From IMG/VR virus record IMGVR_UViG_2654587571_000016: 11,400 bases of DNA. The stretch is one strand, 5' to 3'. Of this stretch, positions 1-10,700 are shown piece after piece (positions within the stretch are counted from its first letter, which is position 1; each line of letters starts with the position of its first letter). Source of the stretch: a virus (Duplodnaviria; Heunggongvirae; Uroviricota; Caudoviricetes). The position numbers and the translations under genes are program-made. Below the pieces are notes generated by a model. The model saw nothing but the letters and a program-made list of their open reading frames with translations, was not told the DNA's origin and made no database searches.

Positions 1-696
1 GCCTTCATCAGTGGTAAGGCACCGGAAATCAAACCCTCGCCCGGCGGCAACACGCCATCGGGTCCGTCTGCAGATACGTCCGTTCGCACAATCTCCCTGC
101 TGCCGGCAGCCGGAGAGGCTGCTGCGCAGGGCTGGAGCATTAAGGATGGCGGAATTCAGTTGTCAGATGGTGTATTTAAGATCACCAAGCAGAGCAATAA
201 AACCTGGTCCCTGACGCATCCGGTGGATGACGCAATTACCCTGCTGACACAGGGCGGCAGACTGACCTGTAAGTTCCGCCTGTCAGGCGCACTGACCAAC
301 AATCAGTTCGGTCTGGGAATTTATCTGTATACCGATGTAGCGTTACCTGACGTCGTGGCGATGACCGGGACTGGTAACCCGTTCCTGATGTCGTTCTTCA
401 CCCAGACCACAGACGGCAAACTGAATCTGATGCATCACAAGAAAGCAGGAAACACAAAGTTGGGCGAGTTCGGGAATTACAGTAACGACTGGCAGACGCT
501 GGAGCTGGTGTTCACCGCCAGCAGTGCCACGGTTACTCCGAAACTGAATGGAGTGGCTGGCCCGGCATTCCAGGTCATAAAAGACAGTCTGACACTGGGG
601 CTGAATGCACTGACGCTGACGGATATTACCAAAAATGCAACGTATGGCGTTGAGATAGAAAGTCTGGTGCTGGAAATAAATAGTCCTGCAGCGTAA
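1..696 (+). CDS. Hypothetical protein, 5'-truncated by the window edge (at least 231 aa); predicted beta-rich, function unknown
   Basis: Frame 1 is open from base 1 to the TAA at 694-696 (the listed ORF 160..696 is its distal part); followed 24 nt later by the gpR-like gene with a GGAGA Shine-Dalgarno. I do not recognise the family. Confidence 0.55.
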   Translation, partial: AFISGKAPEIKPSPGGNTPSGPSADTSVRTISLLPAAGEAAAQGWSIKDGGIQLSDGVFKITKQSNKTWSLTHPVDDAITLLTQGGRLTCKFRLSGALTNNQFGLGIYLYTDVALPDVVAMTGTGNPFLMSFFTQTTDGKLNLMHHKKAGNTKLGEFGNYSNDWQTLELVFTASSATVTPKLNGVAGPAFQVIKDSLTLGLNALTLTDITKNATYGVEIESLVLEINSPAA

Positions 697-719
697 GGAA
701 GAACAGGAGAGCAAAACAG

Positions 720-1187
720 ATGCTTAAGACAAACAGCCTCCGGAAGGGCATGATTCATGGGTGTCGCTGGTGTCAGGCCAACCCGGAAAAATTCACCATT
801 TTCGTGGAGAGCGGCAACATTGAAACGACCGGAGAAACGCCCTCGTTTGTTTACCGCTATCAGATGGTGATGTTTGTCATGGATTACGCCGGGGAGCTGG
901 ACGACCTCACGCTGCCGCTACTGGCGTGGTTATCCGAAAATCAGCCGCAATTGTTGCTTAATCCGGAGCGTAATCAGGACATCAAATTCTCCGCCGTTAT
1001 CAATGACGATGACAGCGCCGATCTCCTGTTTACGCTCCCTCTGCGGGAACGCGTTCGCATCACGCGCAGCAGTCAGGGGGCACCGCAGGCAGAACACCTG
1101 CAGGAGCCAAAACCCCGTCTGCCATCTTCCGAAGGCGACTGGTCGCATGTATTCCAGGATGTGACGTGGGGTGAAAGCGATGGATAA
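720..1187 (+). CDS. P2 gpR-like tail completion protein (155 aa)
   Basis: ATG at 720 with GGAGA upstream; same length as P2 R (155 aa); sits immediately upstream of S, V, W, J, I, H, G homologs; stop overlaps the next start (ATGGATAA). Confidence 0.6.
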   Translation: MLKTNSLRKGMIHGCRWCQANPEKFTIFVESGNIETTGETPSFVYRYQMVMFVMDYAGELDDLTLPLLAWLSENQPQLLLNPERNQDIKFSAVINDDDSADLLFTLPLRERVRITRSSQGAPQAEHLQEPKPRLPSSEGDWSHVFQDVTWGESDG

Positions 1188-1815
1188 GGCATTCACCCGC
1201 GTGGATGAAACCTTTGAGGCTATCCGCGACAGCCTGAATCAGCAGGCCATCAATAACATCGCCAGAAAGCTGGCACAGGATTTACGCCGCGCCCAGCAGG
1301 CGCGTATCCGGTCACAGAAAGCGCCGGACGGGACCGCGTGGACACCACGCAGACGCCGCGCAACCCGGATACAGGAGCGCATTCGCTTTATCTGGAATAA
1401 CGAAGCACGCACGCTGAAAAACTGGCATCACGACACGGGGAAATACGGGCGAACCATTACCGGGTGGGATGAGGATAAAAACAATATCCGCACGTTTTAC
1501 CGGGATGACATCGACCGCTTTCTGGAAATACGCACCCGGCGCATCAACCAGGACAGCACAAAGCGCGTCCCCATGTTCGTAAAACTGCGCACCGCCCGCT
1601 ACCTGAAAGCCCGTGCAGATGCTTCCGGTGTGACGGTGGGTTACAGCGGCGTGGCCGCACGTATTGCCCGCGTTCATCAGTTCGGTGAGCGCGATCAGGT
1701 TGCGCCGGGCATTTTCACCGATTACCCGGTACGTGAGCTGTTGGGCATCAGTCAGGCAGATGAACGCCTGATTTATAACACGGTGCTGGGCCGGATTGCG
1801 GAGGCTGTACGGTGA
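1180..1815 (+). CDS. P2 gpS-like tail completion / virion morphogenesis protein
   Basis: ATG at 1180 overlaps the upstream stop (alternative GTG at 1171); its TGA overlaps the GTG start of the gpV homolog (GTGA); position and size fit the P2 S slot, though larger than P2 S. Confidence 0.55.
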   Translation: MDKAFTRVDETFEAIRDSLNQQAINNIARKLAQDLRRAQQARIRSQKAPDGTAWTPRRRRATRIQERIRFIWNNEARTLKNWHHDTGKYGRTITGWDEDKNNIRTFYRDDIDRFLEIRTRRINQDSTKRVPMFVKLRTARYLKARADASGVTVGYSGVAARIARVHQFGERDQVAPGIFTDYPVRELLGISQADERLIYNTVLGRIAEAVR

Positions 1816-2393
1816 GCGCAGAACTCATGCGACTGCTGAGCAACATCATCCGCACTGGGATCATCTCTGAAGTTGATGAGAAGTCCTGGTGCGTGCGCGT
1901 TCGCAGCGGCGAACTGGAAACAGGCTGGTTGCGCTGGAACACCACGCGCGCGGGAGCCTTCAATGTGTGGCTGCCGCCATCACCCGGCGAACAGGTGGTA
2001 ATTGCCTGCATTGGCGGCAACCCGGAAACCGCCATGATAATTGGCAGCCTGTGGAGTGATGCCAATCCGGCCCCCGGCAAAAGCCTGAAAGAAATCGTGG
2101 TCAGCGCGCCGGATGGCGCGGTGTTCCGCTACGACGCGGACGCAGGCGCACTGAGCGCCAGCGGCATGAAAACGGCCACCCTGCAGGCATCCGTCAGTGT
2201 GACACTGGACACGCCCGTCGTGGAATGCACAGACCTTCTGAGAACGGCGACGCTTGACGTCACAAAAGGGGGAAAGATGAGCGGCAATATCACGCACAGC
2301 GGCGGCAATTTCACCTCAAACGGCATCACAGTGCATACGCATAAACACGGTGGCGTTAAAGGTGGCAGCGATTCGACAGGAGGCCCGCAGTGA
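1812..2393 (+). CDS. Baseplate assembly protein V (P2 gpV-like spike/hub)
   Basis: 193 aa; N-terminal ...NIIRTGIISEVD... and the C-terminal ...VTKGGKMSGNITHSGGNFTSNGITVHTHKHGG... block match the gpV family as I recall it; GGAGG 8 nt upstream of GTG 1812; GTGA overlap with the W homolog. Confidence 0.85.
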   Translation: MSAELMRLLSNIIRTGIISEVDEKSWCVRVRSGELETGWLRWNTTRAGAFNVWLPPSPGEQVVIACIGGNPETAMIIGSLWSDANPAPGKSLKEIVVSAPDGAVFRYDADAGALSASGMKTATLQASVSVTLDTPVVECTDLLRTATLDVTKGGKMSGNITHSGGNFTSNGITVHTHKHGGVKGGSDSTGGPQ

Positions 2394-2740
2394 CAACCCG
2401 CTACACAGGAATGAACCCGGACGGAACGGGAAACCTGAACGATATGGAGCATCTGAAACAGTCAGTCAGGGACATCCTGACCACCCCGCTGGCAAGCCGG
2501 GTTATGCGACGGGAATATGGCAGCCTTGTGCCCGATTTAATTGACGAACCCATGAATAACACCACTCGTCTGCAATGCATGAGTGCTGCCGTGATTGCGC
2601 TGACACGATGGGAACCCCGCATTGCCCTGGACGCCATCGACGTTGTCTGGAAGGCAGGAGGCCGCGCCGGGGTGACGCTGTCGGGCACTGTCATGCAGAC
2701 CATGCAGAATGTTGAATTAACCATCACGCTGAGGGAGTAA
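2390..2740 (+). CDS. Baseplate wedge protein W (P2 gpW / T4 gp25-like)
   Basis: 116 aa, the size of P2 W (115 aa); AGGAGG 7 nt upstream of GTG 2390; gp25/GPW-like sequence; directly followed by the gpJ homolog. Confidence 0.8.
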   Translation: MTTRYTGMNPDGTGNLNDMEHLKQSVRDILTTPLASRVMRREYGSLVPDLIDEPMNNTTRLQCMSAAVIALTRWEPRIALDAIDVVWKAGGRAGVTLSGTVMQTMQNVELTITLRE

Positions 2741-2743
2741 ATC

Positions 2744-3640
2744 ATGCCTGCCGTTGACCTTTCCCAGTTACCGGAACCCGCCATCATCGCGGAGCCTGAC
2801 TTTGAGGCAATTCTGGCTGACACAAAGGCCATGATGATTGCGTCCTATCCTGCCGAACAGCGTGAAGCCGTCTCCGCCGCGCTGGAGCTGGAATCGGAAC
2901 CCCTGAACGTTATCGCCCAGACAACAGCGTTTCGTGAAATGCTGTTACGCCAGCGGGTCAATGAGGGGGCACGCGCCTGCATGTTAAGCCACAGCGCCGG
3001 GACAGACCTGGACAACCTCGCGGGCAATATGAACACAAAGCGCCTGACCATCACTCCGGCAACGGATACCACCGACGCAGTGATGGAAAGTGACACCTCG
3101 CTGAGACTGCGGGCGCAGCGGGCGTACGATGGCCTGAGTGTTGCTGGCCCGTCAGGTGCATACGAGTATTTTGCCCGCAGCGCCAGCGGTCTGGTGCGTG
3201 ATGCGCGGGCTATCAGTCCGTCTCCGGCAAATGTGACGGTTTCCATCCTGTCCACTGAAGGCGACGGCACAGCAACGGAGGCGTTGCTTAATACCGTTCG
3301 CGCCGTTCTGAATGCAGAGGATACCCGCCCGGTGGCCGACCGCCTGACGGTACAGAGCGCCAGAATCGTGACATGGCGGCTGAATGCAAAACTGTACTTT
3401 TACCCCGGCCCGGAATCCGAACCTATTCTGGCGGCGGCTGAATCGTCGTTCAGGAAGTGGCTGGCTGAGCAGGGGCTTATCGGTCAGGACGTGGCGTTGT
3501 CCGCCATTGCTGCCGCACTGCATGTGCACGGTGTGCAACGCGTGGAGATAATCGAACCCACACAGAATATGGCCATCAGCGACATACAGGCGGCGCGCTG
3601 TGAGTCGTTCACCATCAGCGAAGGTGGGCGCAATGAGTAA
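2744..3640 (+). CDS. Baseplate assembly protein J (P2 gpJ-like)
   Basis: 298 aa (P2 J is about 302 aa); ATG 2744 with GAGGGAG upstream; stop overlaps the gpI start (ATGAGTAA). Confidence 0.85.
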   Translation: MPAVDLSQLPEPAIIAEPDFEAILADTKAMMIASYPAEQREAVSAALELESEPLNVIAQTTAFREMLLRQRVNEGARACMLSHSAGTDLDNLAGNMNTKRLTITPATDTTDAVMESDTSLRLRAQRAYDGLSVAGPSGAYEYFARSASGLVRDARAISPSPANVTVSILSTEGDGTATEALLNTVRAVLNAEDTRPVADRLTVQSARIVTWRLNAKLYFYPGPESEPILAAAESSFRKWLAEQGLIGQDVALSAIAAALHVHGVQRVEIIEPTQNMAISDIQAARCESFTISEGGRNE

Positions 3641-4163
3641 TTCACTGTTACCACCATCAGCCAGCAGTTTCATGCGTTGTGCCGAAGCTGTCGGAACGCG
3701 CATTACAGACATCCCGGTAGACCTCAACACGCTGTGGTCGCCGGACACCTGCCCGGTGCACCTGCTGCCTTATCTCGCCTGGGCATTTTCCGTTGACCGC
3801 TGGGATCGCAACTGGCCGGAAGAGACAAAACGACAGGTGATTCGTGATGCATGGCTGATACACCGACACAAAGGGACCATCAGCGCACTGCGCAGGGCCA
3901 TTGAGCCGCTGGGATACCTCATTCGCGTGTCTGAGTGGTGGGAGTTCGGCGGAGAACCGGGAACATTTACCGTTGAAGTCGGCACACTGGACAGTGGCGT
4001 GACGGAGGAAATGTATCTGGAAATGGAGCGGTTGATTGCTGATGCCCGTCCGGTCAGCCGCCACATGACAGGGCTGAATATCATTCAGGAAATTCCGGGG
4101 GATATTTTTGCAGCGGCGGCAACTCATGACGGTGAAGTTATTACCATTTATCCGGACGATTAA
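3633..4163 (+). CDS. Tail/baseplate protein I (P2 gpI-like)
   Basis: 176 aa when started at ATG 3633 (the upstream in-frame ATG 3600 lies inside gpJ and is unlikely); AAGGTGG Shine-Dalgarno; same size as P2 I; stop 2 nt before the gpH start. Confidence 0.8.
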
Positions 4164-4165
4164 GC

Positions 4166-6298
4166 ATGAGTACCACAACACGAAAATTTAAAACCGTTAT
4201 CACCGATACAGGTGCCAAAAAATTAGCTCAGGCAGCCGCGCCAGATGGTAAGCCTGTCCGCCTGACTCATATGGCCGTGGGCGACGGTGGCGGCGCGTTG
4301 CCCACACCAGACAGTAAGCAGACCCGTCTGGTGCATGAGGTGTGGCGACACACTGTTAATCGCGTCATCCTGGACGCAACACATCAGAACCGCATTATTG
4401 CGGAGCTGGTTATTCCTCCAGAAACGGGCGGATTCTGGATCCGGGAAATTGGTGTTTTTGATGAGCACGGCGATTTAATCGCGGTGGGCAATACTGCCGA
4501 AAGTTACAAGCCAGCCGTTGCCGAAGGGTCCGGACGTGCACAAACATTTCGCACCATTCTGACCGTATCCAGCACTGCCACTGTGGCGCTTACCGTGGAT
4601 AACACCATGGTGATGGCCACAGTGGATTACGTGGATAACAAACTGAAAGAGCATGAACAGTCACGATGTCACCCGGATGCCTCGCTGACCGCAAAAGGCT
4701 TTGTTCAACTCAGTAGCGCCACTAACAGCGATTCTGAAACGCTGGCTGCAACGCCGAAAGCGGTTAAGGTCGCGTATGATCTTGCTAACGGAAAATATAC
4801 AGCGCAGGATGCCACAACAGCGCGAAAAGGCCTTGTCCAGCTTAGTAGTGCAACCAACAGTACATCTGAAACGCTGGCGGCAACATCAAATGCAGTAAAA
4901 GCTGCCTATGACAATGCTGAAAAACGTCTGCAGAAAGCTAAGAATGGTGAGGATATCTCTGATAAAGACACCTTTACGAAAAATATCGGTGCCTGCCGTG
5001 CATATAGTGCAGAGCTGAATATTGGTGGAGATAGTGAAGCATGGACAACTGCGCAGTTGATTTTTTGGCTAGAGAGTCAGGGGGCATTTAACCATCCTTA
5101 CTGGATGTGCAAAGGCTCATGGGCTTATGCAAATAATAAGGTCATTACAGATACAGGTTGCGGAAGTATTTGTCTTGCAGGTGCTGTTGTGGAAGTTATT
5201 GGCACCCGCGGCGCAATGACCATACGCATTACCACACCGAGTACATCCAGCGGTGAAGGCATCCCTAATGCTCAATTTACTTATATTAATCATGGTGATG
5301 CTTATGCTCCTGGCTGGCGAAGGGACTATAACTCCAGGAATAAGCCAACAGCATCAGAGATCGGGGCGTTACCGTCAGATGGGACAGCAGTATCGTCAGT
5401 TAATCTGGCTTCAAAAGGTCGGCTGACCGCCCTGACAGATAATATGCAGGGGGCCACAGGTCTGGAGTTATACGAGGCGTATAACAACGGATATCCAACA
5501 ACGTATGGAAATATCATTCACCTGAAAGGGATGACAGCCGTTGGCGAAGGCGAATTACTCATCGGCTGGAGTGGTATAAGCGGTGCTCATGCTCCGGCAT
5601 TTATTCGTTCACGACGGGATACGCCCGACGCAAACTGGTCGCCGTGGGCGCAGCTTTACACCTCGGCTCATCCTCCTGAAGAGTTTTATCCAGTCGGTGC
5701 ACCGATTCCGTGGCCATCAGATACCGTTCCGTCTGGTTATGCCCTGATGCAGGGGCAGACTTTTGACAAATCTGCATACCCGAAACTTGCAGTCGCTTAT
5801 CCGTCAGGCGTTATTCCTGATATGCGTGGCTGGACGATTAAGGGCAAGCCCGGCAGTGGTCGTGCCGTATTGTCTCAGGAACAGGACGGCATTAAATCGC
5901 ACACCCACAGCGCCAGCGCATCCAGTACGGATTTGGGGACGAAAACCACATCGTCGTTTGATTACGGTACTAAAACGACCAGTTCATTTGATTACGGCAC
6001 AAAAACTACGAATAGCGCTGGAAATCATTCACACAATATACCTGTTGGTCACACTGGCGCGGGGAATGGTGTATCAGCCGGTTATAACGCTGCGTTAGGT
6101 ACTGGTACCACGTCGAGCGCAGGCGAGCATGCTCACAATGTATATATCGGTGCCCATAACCACACTATCGGCATTGGTGCTCATGCCCATTCTGTCATTA
6201 TTGGTCCCCACGGACACACCATCACCGTTAACGCTACGGGTAACGAAGAAAACACCGTAAAAAACATCGCATTTAACTATATTGTGAGGCTTGCATAA
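4166..6298 (+). CDS. Tail fiber protein (P2 gpH-like N-terminus and repeat region, His-rich receptor-binding C-terminus)
   Basis: 710 aa; the N-terminus (..[45 protein letters not shown]..) and the duplicated ..[21 protein letters not shown].. block match P2 H as I recall it; C-terminus carries repeated HxH motifs (HSHN, EHAHN, AHNH, AHAHS, HGH). Confidence 0.9.
4694..4912 (+). repeat. Diverged internal direct duplication in the tail-fiber gene (two ~87-nt copies, 4694-4780 and 4826-4912)
   Basis: Protein repeats [29 protein letters not shown] / [29 protein letters not shown]; the DNA copies are clearly related but diverged. Confidence 0.7.
5936..6016 (+). repeat. 30-nt tandem repeat, about 2.7 copies, encoding [10 protein letters not shown] units within the tail-fiber gene
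   Basis: Read directly: gggacgaaaaccacatcgtcgtttgattac / ggtactaaaacgaccagttcatttgattac / ggcacaaaaactacgaatagc. Confidence 0.8.
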
Positions 6299-6876
6299 TG
6301 ACATTCAGAATGAGTGAACACTCACGGACCATAAAAATTTATAATCTACTGACCGGAACCAATGAGTTTATTGGTGAAGGTGATGCATACATTCCACCTC
6401 ATACAGGTCTGCCTGCAAACAGTACCGATATTGCCCCGCCAGATATTCCGGCTGGCTTCGTGGCCGTTTTCAACAGTGATGAGGCATCGTGGCATCTCGT
6501 TGAAGACCATCGGGGTAAAACGGTTTATGACGTGGCATCAGGGGACTCGTTATTTATTTCTGAACTCGGTCCATTACCGGAAAATGTTACCTGGTTGTCG
6601 CCGTATGGAGAGTATCAGAAGTGGAACGGCACATCCTGGGTGAAAGATGCAGAAGCAGAAAAACTGTTTCGGATAAGGGAGGCGGAAGAAACAAAAAACA
6701 GCCTGATGCAGGTAGCCAGCGAGCATATTGCGCCACTTCAGGATGCCGTAGATTTGGATATTGCAACGGAGGAAGAGGCATCGTTACTGGCTGCATGGAA
6801 GACATACCGGGTATTGTTGAATCGTGTTAATACAGCGGTAGCAGCGGATGTTGAGTGGCCAGTCGCCCCACAATAA
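6298..6876 (+). CDS. Tail fiber assembly chaperone (Tfa; P2 gpG / lambda Tfa family)
   Basis: 192 aa; C-terminal ..[39 protein letters not shown].. is the Tfa signature as I recall it; start overlaps the gpH stop (TAATG). Confidence 0.85.
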
Positions 6877-6919: not shown

Positions 6920-7492
6920 CTATTTATACAATACAACACCGCTCTTTTTAGTTATATATGTGCAGTTCGATGGTATATCTTTATTTATAAAAGACATTGC
7001 ACCTATTTTTACATTATCCCCAATTTTACGTGATAATCCAATGATGCAACAATTAGCTCCGATATCAACGTTACTACCAATTTTTACTCTTGAACCAGGC
7101 ATGTCACCATCTATCTGTCCAATGGTAGTATTCTGTCGTAACACCAGATTTTCACCAGCATCAACAGCAAAATGAACAACAATTCCAGCATGATGGGGAA
7201 TTGTTAACCCTTTTCCAATATTTGCGCCCAATCCAATTTCACAACCAAATTTGTTAATTATTTTACTGTTTAACTTTTTGGCTGCTTTCTTATGTAATTT
7301 ATTACCATTAATATACATTTCGTTAGCCAACCGCCACCAGAAAAGGAAATTCCGGTTACGCTGTTTTTTCTCTCTTAAAAGCCTCCAGATATCCATACGT
7401 TTCCGCCGAATTACTTCATATTTCCAGAAGTTTTTTAAATTAGTAGAGTCCCCAAATAAAACAAAGTGAATTGCCATTAAGTAAGACAGCAC
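6920..7492 (-). CDS. Hexapeptide-repeat acetyltransferase (WcaB/CysE/WbbJ-like left-handed beta-helix O-acetyltransferase); low-GC cargo gene
   Basis: Hexapeptide signature ..GCEIGLGANIGKGLTIPHHAGIVVHFAVDAGENLVLRQNTTIG..IGSNVDIGANCCIIG..; by inspection much lower GC than the flanking tail genes. Start uncertain: GTG 7492 has GGAGA 5 nt upstream; alternatives are ATG 7477 and the longest-ORF GTG 7525. Confidence 0.75.
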   Translation of the reverse strand: MLSYLMAIHFVLFGDSTNLKNFWKYEVIRRKRMDIWRLLREKKQRNRNFLFWWRLANEMYINGNKLHKKAAKKLNSKIINKFGCEIGLGANIGKGLTIPHHAGIVVHFAVDAGENLVLRQNTTIGQIDGDMPGSRVKIGSNVDIGANCCIIGLSRKIGDNVKIGAMSFINKDIPSNCTYITKKSGVVLYK

Positions 7493-7648
7493 GATAATCT
7501 CCTTAATTATTATTTCAGACCACACATATTATAAGGTTAAGAGATTATAAAATCCTGTTGTTTGTTATTCAAAAACAATTTTCTGAGAAGGACATACAAC
7601 AGCAAGTCGCCAGTCACCTTCATCAGGAAATTGGCGACATACGTTAAA

Positions 7649-8143: not shown

Positions 8144-8205
8144 GACTCCTCAATCTTTATCGTAAAAGTTTCAATGCTTTTTCCTGCGGAGGTAAGGGAT
8201 ATGTA

Positions 8206-8508
8206 GTGTTCAGTTGGCTGAGAACTTCAACAATTATCAGACGTTTTATACGGACACTAATTAAGATCCCAGCTAACAGGATGTTCAATACCCTTCTGTA
8301 TTTTTTCTTCACAAAGGCCGAAAATACATATTCATCCCCTGAGTGGTGGGACAGGCTCAGTGATAAACAGCGAGAGAATATCGGCAACATGATTATGTCA
8401 GGGGTTGAATTTTTTGGCAGACCTACATCACAGGTTGATCATTCCGTTGATTATAACGCCGCTGCACTTGAAGAGATAACATGCAGCAACAACGAAATTT
8501 GCAGCTGA
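8206..8508 (+). CDS. Hypothetical small protein (75-100 aa), low GC, unknown function
   Basis: ORF with a GTG start at 8206 (GGAGG about 14 nt upstream) or ATG at 8281; no recognisable family; weak translation signals, so it may not be expressed. Confidence 0.3.
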   Translation: MFSWLRTSTIIRRFIRTLIKIPANRMFNTLLYFFFTKAENTYSSPEWWDRLSDKQRENIGNMIMSGVEFFGRPTSQVDHSVDYNAAALEEITCSNNEICS

Positions 8509-8797: not shown

Positions 8798-9058
8798 ATG
8801 TTCCGTTGTCCGCTTTGTGGCGCATCTGCCCGAATCCGCACCAGTCGTCCGGAAAACGATTCAAACACTGTGCGGCAAAAGTATTACCAGTGTAACAACC
8901 TGGAATGCGGCGTATGCTTCTCAACACTGGAAGCTTTCCATAAATTCACATCAAAACACGCCTCCGGCGTTCACTCTTCGGAAGGTATCCCGTGGCATGA
9001 GCTGCCAGCTTCACACAGGGGAAACAATCAGATGAGTTTGCCTTTACCTCAGAATTAA
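8798..9058 (+). CDS. ogr: Ogr/Delta-family zinc-finger late transcription activator (P2 Ogr-like, with C-terminal extension)
   Basis: MFRCPLCGASARIRTSR...YYQCNNLEC: the CxxC...CxxxxC zinc-finger layout and MF.CPLC start of Ogr/Delta; strong Shine-Dalgarno (AAGGGAGG); 86 aa against about 72 aa for P2 Ogr. Confidence 0.8.
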   Translation: MFRCPLCGASARIRTSRPENDSNTVRQKYYQCNNLECGVCFSTLEAFHKFTSKHASGVHSSEGIPWHELPASHRGNNQMSLPLPQN

Positions 9059-9067
9059 CAGGCAGAA

Positions 9068-9096
9068 TTGCCGGAGTAACAAAAAAACGATAGATT
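9068..9096 (+). promoter_or_regulatory. Candidate promoter for the hok mRNA (long structured leader expected)
   Basis: TTGCCG (9068-9073), 17-nt spacer, TAGATT (9091-9096), about 150 nt upstream of the hok ATG, in line with the long leaders of hok-family mRNAs. Confidence 0.2.
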
Positions 9097-9248
9097 ACCC
9101 GCGGGTGCCTTTCGGCTGATGGTCGGAGGAATACCCGAAGGCCGGATGTGGAAAGGCCCCGGAAAACATTTCTGTTTAACCGAGGCCCTAACATATCTAC
9201 CTTAAGCAAGTGATAGGTTAGCGCCTCTCCAACAAAGGAGCAAGCGCT

Positions 9249-9389
9249 ATGTCGCAAAAATCGCTTACAGCCATCACGTTCTGCGTGACGGTAATCCTCA
9301 TCATCTGGATGCTACACGGTTCGCTGTGTGAAATACGGATGAGCTTCTGGGGAGCGGAGTTTGCGGCGTTCTTACAGTGTAAGCAGTAA
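9249..9389 (+). CDS. hok: Hok/Gef-family type I toxin (46 aa membrane peptide)
   Basis: MSQKSLTAITFCVTVILIIWMLHGSLCEIRMSFWGAEFAAFLQCKQ: hydrophobic N-terminal helix followed by the conserved SLCEIR...AAF(L/M) motif shared with HokA/HokC as I recall them; AAAGGAG Shine-Dalgarno 8 nt upstream; missed by the 60-aa ORF track. Confidence 0.8.
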   Translation: MSQKSLTAITFCVTVILIIWMLHGSLCEIRMSFWGAEFAAFLQCKQ

Positions 9390-9398
9390 GGAAACCGC

Positions 9399-9420
9399 GA
9401 CGGGGGAGCAATCCCCCGTC
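9399..9420 (+). other. GC-rich perfect hairpin in the hok 3' UTR (possible mRNA stability or fold-back element)
   Basis: gacggggga-gcaa-tcccccgtc: 9-bp perfect stem, 4-nt loop, no U-run after it. Confidence 0.4.
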
Positions 9421-9475
9421 AATCGGTTGCTAAGGTTGGCTGAAGTGGCACCCTATCTCACAGACATGAACAACA

Positions 9476-9509
9476 AACCCGCAGCGTAAGAACTGCGGGT
9501 TTTCTTTTT
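9476..9509 (+). terminator. Intrinsic terminator of the hok transcript (possibly bidirectional)
   Basis: cccgcag-cgtaagaa-ctgcggg followed by TTTTCTTTTT. Confidence 0.6.
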
Positions 9510-9577
9510 GGAACAATCACTAGCTAGTGTACCGTTAACGGCACATAATGCTCGCACAACAAACCTGTTAAAAGAGA

Positions 9578-9859
9578 TTACTCAGCATTCTCCTGCTTCC
9601 ATTGCCGGATCATTTCATCGGTAACATCACCCTCATAACATACCACGTCATACCCTCCATTACGGCTATATGCACTGCGTCCACCACATCTACTACCATT
9701 CCTTGCATGATTATAAGGACACGCACAATTGCCTGGATAAGATTCAATGGATTCTTTAATTATTTCTTTTTTGATCTGAGCATCAGACTTTCCTGTTGCT
9801 GCATATCCACTAAAAGATACTAAACAAAGGCAGATTGCCATTAATAAACCACATCGCAT
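9578..9859 (-). CDS. Small secreted cysteine-rich protein of unknown function (about 93 aa, predicted signal peptide)
   Basis: Taking ATG 9859 gives MRCGLLMAICLCLVSFSGYA|ATG..., a signal-peptide-like N-terminus; mature part holds 5 Cys (..PGNCACPYNHARNGSRCGGRSAYSRNGGYDVVCYEGD..). The longest ORF runs to 9973 (TTG/ATG) but that extension is non-hydrophobic and lacks a Shine-Dalgarno. Confidence 0.5.
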   Translation of the reverse strand: MRCGLLMAICLCLVSFSGYAATGKSDAQIKKEIIKESIESYPGNCACPYNHARNGSRCGGRSAYSRNGGYDVVCYEGDVTDEMIRQWKQENAE

Positions 9860-10140
9860 ACCGATACACTCTATTACTAACCAATCATAGCCCACATCAT
9901 AAAATCGAGATGAGGAGTACAATACCTTTAACAAGAAGGTGTCATAACGATAATATGTCGTGCAATTCATCAAAAAAAAGATCTATATCAAAGAGATAGA
10001 ACTCTTATCAGTGCTTCAGACATCGGCATTCGAGGCAGCAGAAAAACAGTAAATCTGACGAATTTGCCTTTTCCCAAGATGTTGTCAGATTAAAAAGATA
10101 GATTAGCGCAGGTACCTGTTGGTGGATTGCAGGAGGAAAA

Positions 10141-10245
10141 ATGAAGTCGAGTGAAAAAATCCCAGAAAAATTTTTGTTTAACAGAGGTCCTGGTTCACTA
10201 TGCGAAATACGGAGGAGCTGCAGAAGAATTCTGCTTCATCCTTAG
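10141..10245 (+). pseudogene. Decayed hok-like paralog (34-codon ORF retaining the SLCEIR motif but lacking the transmembrane segment)
   Basis: MKSSEKIPEKFLFNRGPGSLCEIRRSCRRILLHP; DNA homology to the intact hok both in the coding region (ggttcactatgcgaaatacgga vs ggttcgctgtgtgaaatacgga) and upstream (gatagattagcgca vs gataggttagcgcc); AGGAGG Shine-Dalgarno retained. Confidence 0.4.
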
Positions 10246-10329
10246 AGTTTAAACAGCACGTGCACTACCATTGTTTCTGCATATCGCCACACCATCGCCA
10301 CTCTACCGCCATTGCACAAAATACAAATA

Positions 10330-10355
10330 CGAAAAAACCACCCGAAGGTGGTTTC
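10330..10355 (-). terminator. Intrinsic terminator of the glyW-cysT-leuZ tRNA operon
   Basis: On the minus strand: aaaccacc-ttcg-ggtggttt hairpin followed by a TTTTTT run, about 40 nt after the leuZ 3' end. Confidence 0.6.
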
Positions 10356-10397
10356 ACGACACTGCTTATTGCTTTGATTTTATTCTTATCTTTCCCA

Positions 10398-10484
10398 TGG
10401 TACCCGGAGCGGGACTTGAACCCGCACAGCGCGAACGCCGAGGGATTTTAAATCCCTTGTGTCTACCGATTCCACCATCCGGGC
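10398..10484 (-). tRNA. leuZ: tRNA-Leu (anticodon UAA)
   Basis: The reverse complement matches E. coli tRNA-Leu(UAA) as I recall it (GCCCGGATGGTGGAATCGGTAGACACAAGGGATTTAAAATCCC...GGGTACCA), 87 nt including CCA. Confidence 0.95.
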
Positions 10485-10496
10485 TCGGGAAGAAAG

Positions 10497-10570
10497 TGGA
10501 GGCGCGTTCCGGAGTCGAACCGGACTAGACGGATTTGCAATCCGCTACATAACCGCTTTGTTAACGCGCC
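10497..10570 (-). tRNA. cysT: tRNA-Cys (anticodon GCA)
   Basis: The reverse complement matches E. coli tRNA-Cys as I recall it (GGCGCGTTAACAAAGCGGTTATGTAGCGGATTGCAAATCCG...CTCCA), 74 nt. Confidence 0.95.
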
Positions 10571-10624
10571 AAATTCTTCAGGCCTTTCAGCCAGACATCC
10601 GCTTGACGCCGATGTCTTTTAAAC

Positions 10625-10700
<76 letters not shown>

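What the first reader, a model, noticed from the sequence alone, without database searches (positions are those of the whole stretch)
10095..10245. Second, decayed hok-like copy between the island cargo and the tRNA terminator
About 150 bp here is homologous to the intact hok locus both upstream and in the coding region, and keeps a strong AGGAGG Shine-Dalgarno and a 34-codon ORF with SLCEIR but no transmembrane helix. It looks like a paralog caught in the process of decay (or a truncated peptide with changed function), and indicates a duplication or two successive insertions at this site. The ORF also contains adjacent PstI and EcoRI sites, most likely by coincidence.
Basis: seen in the sequence. 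Interest (0 to 1): 0.45.

Follow-up and report, generated by a model that had tools for sequence, protein, structure and literature searches.

The report
Dead hok toxin remnant beside attP
This stretch is a real but dead leftover of a second hok/sok toxin-antitoxin module, sitting at the edge of a P2-like prophage next to its leuZ integration site. It lost its toxin start, membrane helix and antitoxin gene long ago and now drifts like junk DNA, so it is an ordinary pseudogene.

Summary
Window 10092-10256 is homologous to the intact hok locus at 9084-9389 in two collinear blocks (z = 22 and 13.5; 0 of 2000 shuffles). A further 28 bp (10052-10079) resembles the 3' end of ogr.

Between the blocks, 128 bp of the intact locus has no counterpart. 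That stretch holds the inferred sok promoter and Sok 5' end, the hok Shine-Dalgarno and start, and codons 1-23 (the membrane helix). The whole hok 3' UTR is also missing.

The 34-codon ORF is a chimera of an out-of-frame leader and the hok C-terminal frame. It has no start codon in O157:H7, is cut to 13 codons in one clade and is frameshifted in another. The segment varies about 14 times more than the intact hok coding sequence and shows no RNA structure signal.

All 26 distinct variants from IMG/VR and four genomes, plus 21 metagenome hits, carry the same deletion junction. The decay therefore predates the divergence of this phage lineage.

Both copies lie inside one excisable prophage (the counterpart of Sakai Sp13 at leuZ), between ogr and the attP arm. 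They are not two insertions into the chromosome. Verdict: a fossil type I toxin-antitoxin locus, unannotated, of low interest.

The parts
8798..9058 (+). ogr (late-gene activator) of the P2-like prophage. Its last ~30 nt are the model for the ogr-like stub upstream of the relic.
   Evidence: Pfam Ogr_Delta, E = 5e-14. Annotated ogr/Delta-like in O26 11368.
9084..9510 (+). Intact hokW-like hok/sok locus (copy 1): leader, hok CDS 9249-9389, 3' UTR with 5'-3' fold-back pairing, and terminator at 9475-9502.
   Evidence: Pfam HOK_GEF, E = 3.7e-7. phrog_251 'MokW-like host killing', E = 2.5e-23. Rfam sok RF01794 at 9103-9259, 46.7 bits, below the gathering score of 59. mRNA fold -175 kcal/mol, z = -7.2, with the 5' end paired to the 3' region. 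Terminator. 98% identical to phage P88.
9190..9317 (+). The 128 bp of copy 1 with no counterpart in the relic: the inferred sok promoter (-35 at 9243-9238, -10 at 9220-9215, minus strand) and Sok 5' end, the hok SD at 9236-9241, the hok ATG at 9249, and codons 1-23 (membrane helix).
   Evidence: Alignment junction 9189|9318 against 10191|10192. The sok promoter was placed by eye on the minus strand, by analogy with R1 from my own knowledge, so it is inferred.
9578..9859 (-). orf93, a small Cys-rich protein with an N-terminal hydrophobic segment; phage cargo lying between the two hok copies.
   Evidence: phrog_27544, E = 7e-58. RefSeq hypothetical protein WP_001303543.1. Low diversity, 0.026.
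10052..10079 (+). Remnant resembling the ogr 3' end, upstream of the relic.
   Evidence: 22 of 28 identical to 9026-9053 and collinear with block A; 6 of 2000 shuffles scored as high.
10092..10191 (+). Relic block A: homolog of the hok mRNA 5' leader up to the GAGG just before the deletion.
   Evidence: z = 22, 0 of 2000 shuffles. 77 of 100 identical to copy 1, P88 and Stx-phage hok loci; background-level scores against K-12 hokA/B/C.
10192..10256 (+). Relic block B: homolog of hok codons 24-46 (GSLCEIR...), with an internal 4-nt gap that breaks the frame.
   Evidence: z = 13.5, 0 of 2000 shuffles; gap shown in the alignment.
10141..10245 (+). Not conserved.
   Evidence: Start is ATA in O157; 13 codons in clade 4; frameshifted in clade 3. 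No family match.
10151..10252 (+). 33-codon GTG ORF. Its start corresponds to the leader ORF of copy 1 (ATG 9146, MWKGPGKHFCLTEAL against VKKSQKNFCLTEVL). Also not conserved.
10283..10301 (+). Two direct ATCGCCAC repeats 11 bp apart; putative arm-type integrase binding sites of the attP P arm.
   Evidence: A matching pair, ATTGTCAC and ATCGCCAC, lies in the P' arm beside int at attL of O26 11368 (L006 8386-8406). Near-invariant in the variants: the first repeat never changes, the second reads ACCGCCAC in three. Function is inferred.
10329..10452 (.). att identity block (124 bp): 3'ETS-leuZ (10331-10397, minus strand) plus the 3' part of leuZ. It is duplicated at attL beside int.
   Evidence: Homology to K-12 starts at 10329. 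attL carries the same block. K-12 annotation of 3'ETS-leuZ.
10398..10484 (-). tRNA-Leu(UAA), leuZ; the integration target.
   Evidence: ARAGORN and Rfam.

Best explanation
[quoted passage not shown] It lies at the far right end of a P2-like (Peduoviridae) prophage integrated in leuZ, about 25 bp from the putative integrase arm sites of attP.

An ancestral phage probably had the order ogr - hok/sok - attP. A duplication or recombination event with a breakpoint in the end of ogr then placed a second ogr - hok/sok - orf93 module upstream (inferred). The att-proximal copy became redundant and lost four things:
- 128 bp holding the sok promoter and Sok 5' end, the hok ribosome site and start, and the membrane helix;
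- its reading frame after SLCEIR;
- its whole 3' UTR, including the fold-back element and terminator;
- apparently its -35 promoter region.

It therefore makes neither toxin nor antitoxin. I infer that it has no activity, and that it persists because it is short, harmless and tightly linked to attP. The 34-codon ORF is an accidental fusion created by the deletion.
For: Shown:
- Homology to hok in two collinear blocks, highly significant, plus an ogr-end stub.
- Closest relatives are phage hokW/P88-type loci, not K-12 hokA/B/C.
- Copy 1 is a bona fide Hok (Pfam and PHROG) with a strongly structured mRNA (z = -7.2). The relic folds no better than shuffles (z = -0.15). Its consensus structure is weak: -11 kcal/mol, with 3 covarying pairs out of 35.
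- Rfam sok hits copy 1 only.
- All 26 distinct variants from 31 IMG/VR loci and 4 genomes, and 21 metagenome hits anchored in block B, share the same deletion junction.
- Extra small deletions occur in single contigs, L158 and L174.
- The ORF is not conserved.
- Mean pairwise diversity among 21 phage haplotypes: hok1 CDS 0.007, orf93 0.026, ogr 0.038, relic 0.096-0.098, intergenic 0.11-0.16.
- The relic is the least conserved segment in nearly every locus.
- The order ogr - hok1 - orf93 - relic - P arm - core is kept in every locus that extends far enough and is not interrupted by other DNA.
- The relic lies between the att repeats.
- It is present in 643 of 5426 complete E. coli genomes and is never annotated.

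Inferred: the origin by module duplication or recombination, the position of the sok promoter, and the loss of the hok promoter.
Against: - The AGGAGG-ATG and the first ~10 codons (MK[S/L]SGKIPEK) are kept in most variants. They were also kept in the metagenome set, which was selected through block B and so was unbiased for this part. With overall diversity near 0.1, an invariant 16-mer is not remarkable.
- The ratio of non-synonymous to synonymous changes in the hok-frame tail between clades 1 and 4 is 6:4 by my own count. That count is too small to prove neutrality.
- No expression data were available, so a transcript or micro-peptide cannot be formally excluded.
- No intact ancestor of this copy was found, so the deletion is inferred from a paralog.
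Confidence: 0.85

Rival explanations
1. The 34-codon ORF encodes a functional truncated peptide, a soluble Hok C-terminal derivative with a new role.
For: Strong AGGAGG four bases before the ATG. The ORF is intact in clades 1 and 2.
Against: Start codon lost in O157:H7. Stop after 13 codons in clade 4. Frameshift to a different C-terminus in clade 3. No Pfam or PHROG match. Diversity is at the intergenic level. The hok-derived part is only about 17 residues and is frame-broken after SLCEIR.
Confidence: 0.03
2. The segment is kept because it works as DNA or RNA. It could be part of the attP P arm (binding sites for IHF, excisionase or Cox). It could also give a residual leader transcript running antisense into 3'ETS-leuZ and leuZ.
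For: It lies about 25 bp from the conserved ATCGCCAC repeats. It is strictly linked to this P arm in IMG/VR: the P-arm pattern found 30 of the 31 loci found by the relic pattern. Diversity is somewhat lower at 10080-10104 and 10130-10154.
Against: It is the most variable segment of the region, while the P arm and core are conserved. No promoter-like site was found at the relic. There is no structure signal. Small indels are tolerated. Linkage to attP is expected for any neutral DNA that close.
Confidence: 0.08
3. The two copies reflect two successive integrations at leuZ: tandem prophages followed by deletion, so that the relic is the right end of an older prophage.
For: The relic carries an ogr-end stub, as the right end of another P2-like phage would. 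Tandem lysogeny at one att site is known for P2-like phages (own knowledge).
Against: No att core copy or int remnant lies between orf93 and the relic; homology to K-12 starts only at 10329. The same arrangement, including the spacer, is found in all four diverged clades and in different hosts. It therefore travels as one phage genome. If the arrangement did arise this way, it was long ago and the product has been a single excisable unit since.
Confidence: 0.1
4. The similarity is a chance match confined to a short motif.
For: None beyond the low (~77%) identity.
Against: Two collinear blocks of 100 and 65 nt with z = 22 and 13.5. The same match is seen to P88 and Stx-phage hok loci, and to about 88 of 136 IMG/VR loci by blastn.
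Confidence: 0.01

Closest known systems
hokW-sokW of Stx prophage Sp5 (E. coli O157:H7 Sakai) and the 'MokW-like' hok of P2-like phage P88 (Xuanwuvirus)
   Same: Closest sequence relatives. Block A is 77 of 100 identical to the leaders of these loci, and block B matches the hok C-terminal coding part of P88. Same setting: prophage cargo, and in P88 next to the right end. hokW-sokW is an experimentally shown type I TA (PMC8621323).
   Different: The relic lacks the sok promoter and Sok 5' part, the hok start and membrane helix, and the 3' UTR. It cannot encode toxin or antitoxin.
hok/sok (parB) of plasmid R1, the paradigm type I toxin-antitoxin
   Same: Same family by descent: leader, Hok C-terminal SLCEIR motif, and in copy 1 the 5'-3' fold-back pairing (family features from my own knowledge and from preprint 10.1101/2025.08.07.668861).
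   Different: The relic meets none of the functional requirements. See the membership test.
Inactivated chromosomal hok loci of E. coli K-12 (hokA/mokA cut by IS150, hokC next to IS186)
   Same: Same kind of thing: hok loci disabled after becoming redundant. The K-12 annotation shows mokA as a pseudogene abutting IS150, and IS186 beside hokC.
   Different: Those loci are disabled by IS insertion and keep an intact hok ORF. Here an internal 128-bp deletion and a 3' truncation destroyed the ORF, and the locus is phage-borne and unannotated.
Sakai prophage Sp13 at leuZ
   Same: Same prophage family and integration site. The relic is 99.3% identical in O157:H7 genomes, including EDL933. Sp13 is reported at leuZ (PMC8190617).
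   Different: In EDL933 the prophage is further degraded: an IS30 replaces ogr and hok copy 1, and the relic's ATG is ATA.

Membership tests
[quoted passage not shown] | Hok ORF of about 50 aa with an N-terminal transmembrane helix (Pfam HOK_GEF) | tested here: not met
   Codons 1-23 of the homologous hok, and its start and SD, have no counterpart. Neither relic ORF hits Pfam or PHROGs. Copy 1 does hit both.
[quoted passage not shown] | Antisense Sok RNA gene with its own promoter overlapping the hok leader and start | tested here: not met
   The region corresponding to 9190-9317, which holds the inferred sok promoter and Sok 5' end, is absent. Rfam sok RF01794 matches copy 1 only, even at E <= 1.
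[quoted passage not shown] | Highly structured mRNA with 5'-3' fold-back (tac/fbi) pairing and a 3' terminator | tested here: not met
   No similarity to the hok 3' UTR after 10256. Fold z = -0.15 against -7.2 for copy 1. Weak consensus structure.
[quoted passage not shown] | Leader ORF (mok) translationally coupled to hok | tested here: inconclusive
   A leader ORF homolog starts at GTG 10151, but its frame and length change between clades. With no hok start there is nothing to couple to. Copy 1 itself has no ORF of 25 aa or more overlapping the hok start.
hok/sok family by descent (homology) | Significant nucleotide similarity to hok loci in both the leader and the coding region, in the same order | tested here: met
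Pseudogene / genomic relic | Disabling lesions relative to an intact homolog | tested here: met
   128-bp internal deletion, frame-breaking 4-nt gap, missing 3' UTR.
Pseudogene / genomic relic | No purifying selection: intergenic-level diversity, ORF not conserved, further indels tolerated | tested here: met
   Diversity 0.096-0.098 against 0.007 for the hok1 CDS. ORF states. Additional deletions in L158 and L174.
Pseudogene / genomic relic | Not expressed as a functional product | not testable with these tools
   No transcriptome or proteome data were available. The promoter scan found nothing at the relic.
attP arm of a tyrosine-integrase temperate phage | Lies inside the element, between the direct repeats of the att core | tested here: met
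   A 124-bp identity block occurs at window 10329-10452 and at attL beside int in O26 11368.
attP arm of a tyrosine-integrase temperate phage | Contains arm-type integrase sites or accessory-factor sites needed for recombination | tested here: inconclusive
   Paired ATYGYCAC repeats sit at 10283-10301 and in the P' arm. They lie outside the relic. Nothing comparable was identified within 10052-10256.

The most novel reading that the evidence does not exclude
The relic is not inert. Its conserved AGGAGG-ATG mini-ORF and leader could still be transcribed towards leuZ, giving an RNA antisense to the phage-supplied 3'ETS-leuZ sponge and to the leuZ 3' end. A P2-like prophage could then tune the host's RyhB/RybB sponge or tRNA-Leu(UAA) maturation. 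Alternatively the segment could be an accessory-protein binding platform of attP.
Probability: 0.05. Interest if true: 0.6.

Novelty: new member of a known kind. Interest (0 to 1): 0.15.

Why it matters
The practical value is mostly for annotation. About 12% of complete E. coli genomes (643 of 5426, including O157:H7, O26, O111, O103 and O145) carry this unannotated hok fossil next to leuZ. Its 34-codon ORF with a strong ribosome site could easily be miscalled as a small protein or a second toxin.

It is also a dated example of how a redundant type I toxin-antitoxin module dies inside a phage. One deletion removed toxin start and antitoxin promoter together, which avoids a lethal intermediate, and neutral drift followed.

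It shows too that P2-like phages of this lineage once had, or acquired, two hok modules. A recent survey found only about 4% of hok-carrying phages with more than one (10.1101/2025.08.07.668861). The finding does not open a new biological question.

Tried and rejected
- Rfam scan of the whole window at E <= 1: nothing at the relic.
- Pfam and PHROG scans of both relic ORFs: nothing.
- Promoter and terminator scan: no promoter-like site at the relic or at copy 1 under the tool's criteria. The only nearby terminator is that of 3'ETS-leuZ on the minus strand.
- blastn of 9520-10330 against 50,697 phage records: no match. The relic and orf93 are therefore absent from deposited phage genomes, although copy 1 is in P88 and relatives.
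- Search for an intact ancestor of the relic, using relic-specific patterns. One genome per species gave 0 hits, then only 2 chance hits. IMG/VR gave 31 loci. Metagenomes gave 21 real hits. A P-arm pattern in IMG/VR returned 30 of the same 31 loci. Every real hit has the same deletion, so no intact version was found.
- Recent tandem duplication of copy 1: rejected because identity is only about 77%, the same as to Stx-phage hok loci.
- A sib-like retroregulation idea, in which the int transcript reads into the relic only in the circular form: rejected. The phage carries its own 3'ETS-leuZ terminator between int and the relic, so int transcripts should stop at the same place in both forms. This is reasoning.
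- Literature searches for hok with leuZ returned only irrelevant papers.

Full report
**Context**

The window is the right end of a P2-like prophage in an EHEC-type E. coli, followed by the chromosomal genes leuZ-cysT-glyW-pgsA. ARAGORN and Rfam find the three tRNAs at 10398-10700 on the minus strand.

The 9980-10400 stretch is 100% identical to O26:H11 11368 and many O26, O111 and O103 genomes. The RefSeq annotation of 11368 gives the local order as tail genes, gpD, ogr, 'Hok/Gef family protein', a hypothetical protein, tRNA-Leu. Sakai prophage Sp13 is reported at leuZ (PMC8190617), and O157:H7 genomes carry the relic at 99.3% identity next to leuZ.

**Where the phage ends**

Homology to K-12 begins at window 10329. 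That is the end of the annotated 3'ETS-leuZ small RNA.

In O26 11368 the other prophage junction, beside the integrase, carries a second copy of 3'ETS-leuZ plus the 3' part of leuZ. The att identity block is therefore 124 bp, window 10329-10452. Everything to its left, including both hok copies, is phage DNA that would excise with the prophage.

Two ATCGCCAC repeats lie at 10283-10301. A matching pair lies in the other arm next to int. They are near-invariant among variants: the first repeat never changes, and the second reads ACCGCCAC in three variants. I read them as arm-type integrase sites, which is an inference.

**The observation**

Local alignment gives two collinear blocks.
- Block A: 10092-10191 against 9084-9189.
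- Block B: 10192-10256 against 9318-9386.

Scores were 37 and 25. Dinucleotide shuffles gave 9.0 +/- 1.3 and 8.4 +/- 1.2, and none of 2000 reached the observed value.

The blocks abut in the relic, but 128 bp separates them in copy 1 (9190-9317). Upstream, 10052-10079 matches the last codons of ogr (9026-9053) at 22 of 28 positions, and 6 of 2000 shuffles scored as high. Downstream of 10256 nothing resembles the hok 3' UTR. The SD, the 34-codon ORF and the PstI/EcoRI sites are as described.

**What copy 1 is**

Its 46-aa product matches Pfam HOK_GEF and PHROG 'MokW-like host killing'. The locus is 98% identical to that of P2-like phage P88 and about 83% identical to the hok loci of Stx phages. 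The Stx-phage relative hokW-sokW is an experimentally validated type I TA (PMC8621323).

The predicted hok mRNA (9100-9505) folds far better than shuffles: -175 kcal/mol, z = -7.2. Its 5' end pairs with a 3' element, as expected for the family. Rfam's sok model hits 9103-9259 at 46.7 bits, below the gathering score.

**What the relic lacks**

The missing 128 bp removes several elements.
- The inferred sok promoter and the Sok 5' recognition part. I placed these by eye on the minus strand, by analogy with R1 from my own knowledge.
- The hok SD (9236-9241) and the ATG (9249).
- Codons 1-23, MSQKSLTAITFCVTVILIIWMLH, which is the whole membrane helix. This follows directly from the coordinates.

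After SLCEIR the alignment needs a 4-nt gap, so the rest of the hok frame is broken. The 3' UTR with its fold-back element and terminator is gone. The region matching copy 1's candidate -35 is not conserved (my reading). The promoter scan found nothing there.

**The ORFs**

The start of the 33-codon ORF at GTG 10151 aligns with the ATG at 9146 of a short leader ORF in copy 1 (MWKGPGKHFCLTEAL against VKKSQKNFCLTEVL).

Among 26 distinct variants:
- clades 1 and 2 keep a 34-codon ORF;
- O157:H7 has ATA instead of ATG;
- clade 3 has a 1-nt deletion giving a different 36-aa product;
- clade 4 has a 1-nt insertion giving a stop after 13 codons.

No family matches either ORF.

**Population evidence**

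The relic is present in 643 of 5426 complete E. coli genomes and is never annotated. Identity to the window clusters in two main bands: 99% or more in 360 genomes and 80-90% (about 86%) in 236 genomes.

All 31 IMG/VR loci, four genomes, and 21 metagenome contigs found through a block-B pattern have the same deletion junction. Single contigs show additional small deletions.

The order ogr - hok1 - orf93 - spacer - relic - P arm - core is kept in every locus that extends far enough and is not interrupted by other DNA. The relic is the least conserved segment in nearly all of them.

Mean pairwise diversity among 21 haplotypes:

| Segment | Diversity |
|---|---|
| hok1 CDS | 0.007 |
| orf93 | 0.026 |
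| ogr | 0.038 |
| relic block A / block B | 0.096 / 0.098 |
| unconstrained intergenic stretches | 0.11-0.16 |

The relic RNA folds no better than shuffles (z = -0.15). Its consensus structure is weak, with 3 of 35 pairs covarying.

**Origin**

The relic is as far from copy 1 as from P88 and Stx-phage hok loci (77 of 100 in block A). It is unrelated at this level to K-12 hokA/B/C. It belongs to the phage hokW-like lineage and is not a recent copy of hok1.

The ogr-end stub suggests the ancestral right end read ogr - hok - attP. It also suggests that a duplication or inter-phage recombination with a breakpoint in the end of ogr added the ogr - hok1 - orf93 module. This step is inferred.

I found no intact version of the relic copy in one-genome-per-species contigs, IMG/VR or metagenomes. 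Tandem integration followed by deletion is less likely. No att core or int remnant lies between orf93 and the relic.

**Comparison with known systems**

By descent this is a hok/sok locus. It fails every functional criterion of the family that could be tested: toxin ORF, Sok gene, and mRNA fold-back and terminator.

It is the same kind of object as the disabled chromosomal hok loci of K-12. There, mokA is a pseudogene abutting IS150, and hokC lies next to IS186. The lesion differs here: an internal deletion plus a 3' truncation, not an IS insertion.

A recent survey reports hok enrichment in prophages, with 96.3% of hok-carrying phages having a single copy (10.1101/2025.08.07.668861). That survey focused on predicted Hok peptide sequences, so I infer it would not have catalogued this relic.

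**Verdict**

The 'new peptide' and 'two insertions at this site' readings are not supported. The feature is an ordinary, old, unannotated pseudogene of a type I TA module. Interest is low.

Noticed in passing
window 10329-10452; L006 about 8180-8303: The phage att identity block is 124 bp and includes the whole 3'ETS-leuZ small RNA (per my own knowledge, the RyhB/RybB sponge) plus the 3' part of leuZ. The lysogen therefore has two copies of 3'ETS-leuZ, and the one attached to the intact leuZ may be phage-derived. The only difference from K-12 is G for A at 10331, the last base of the annotated sRNA.
   Followed up: partly
window 10283-10301; L006 8386-8406: Paired direct repeats ATYGYCAC, 11-13 bp apart, lie in both att arms and are near-invariant among variants. 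They are probably arm-type integrase binding sites.
   Followed up: partly
window 8167|8168: Relative to O26:H11 11368, this prophage lacks about 7.5 kb: tape measure, gpE, tail tube, sheath, gpD and most of a 'YecA family protein' gene. ORF 8206-8508 is the leftover C-terminal fragment. The prophage in this strain should be tail-defective.
   Followed up: partly
window 6641-6839 (+): Full-length Rfam hit to IS009 (RF02111, 192 bits, E = 5e-47), lying inside the tail fibre assembly gene 6298-6876.
   Followed up: no
window 9578-9859 (-): orf93 is a small Cys-rich protein with an N-terminal hydrophobic segment, of unknown function (phrog_27544, E = 7e-58; weak hit to a 'membrane associated protein' moron PHROG). 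It is well conserved (diversity 0.026) but absent from all 50,697 deposited phage records by blastn.
   Followed up: partly
window 9119-9249: The intact hok locus has no ORF of 25 aa or more overlapping the hok start. The only leader ORF (9119 or 9146 to 9205) stops 44 nt before the hok ATG. An R1-type overlapping mok is therefore not evident, and translational control of this hokW-like locus may differ (by-eye comparison with R1 from memory).
   Followed up: no
L003 (E. coli EC-129) 1-4340: In some lineages carrying the ~86% relic variant, the prophage is reduced to a remnant of about 4.4 kb between a leuZ fragment and leuZ. It holds a restriction endonuclease gene, a PD-(D/E)XK nuclease gene, IS1, the spacer and the relic. 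The relic therefore outlives the phage itself.
   Followed up: partly
window 6920-7525 (-): A minus-strand cargo gene between the tail fibre assembly gene and the tail genes. It is annotated as serine O-acetyltransferase in O26 11368 and matches phrog_2154 (E = 2e-87). It may be a moron that modifies a surface structure.
   Followed up: no
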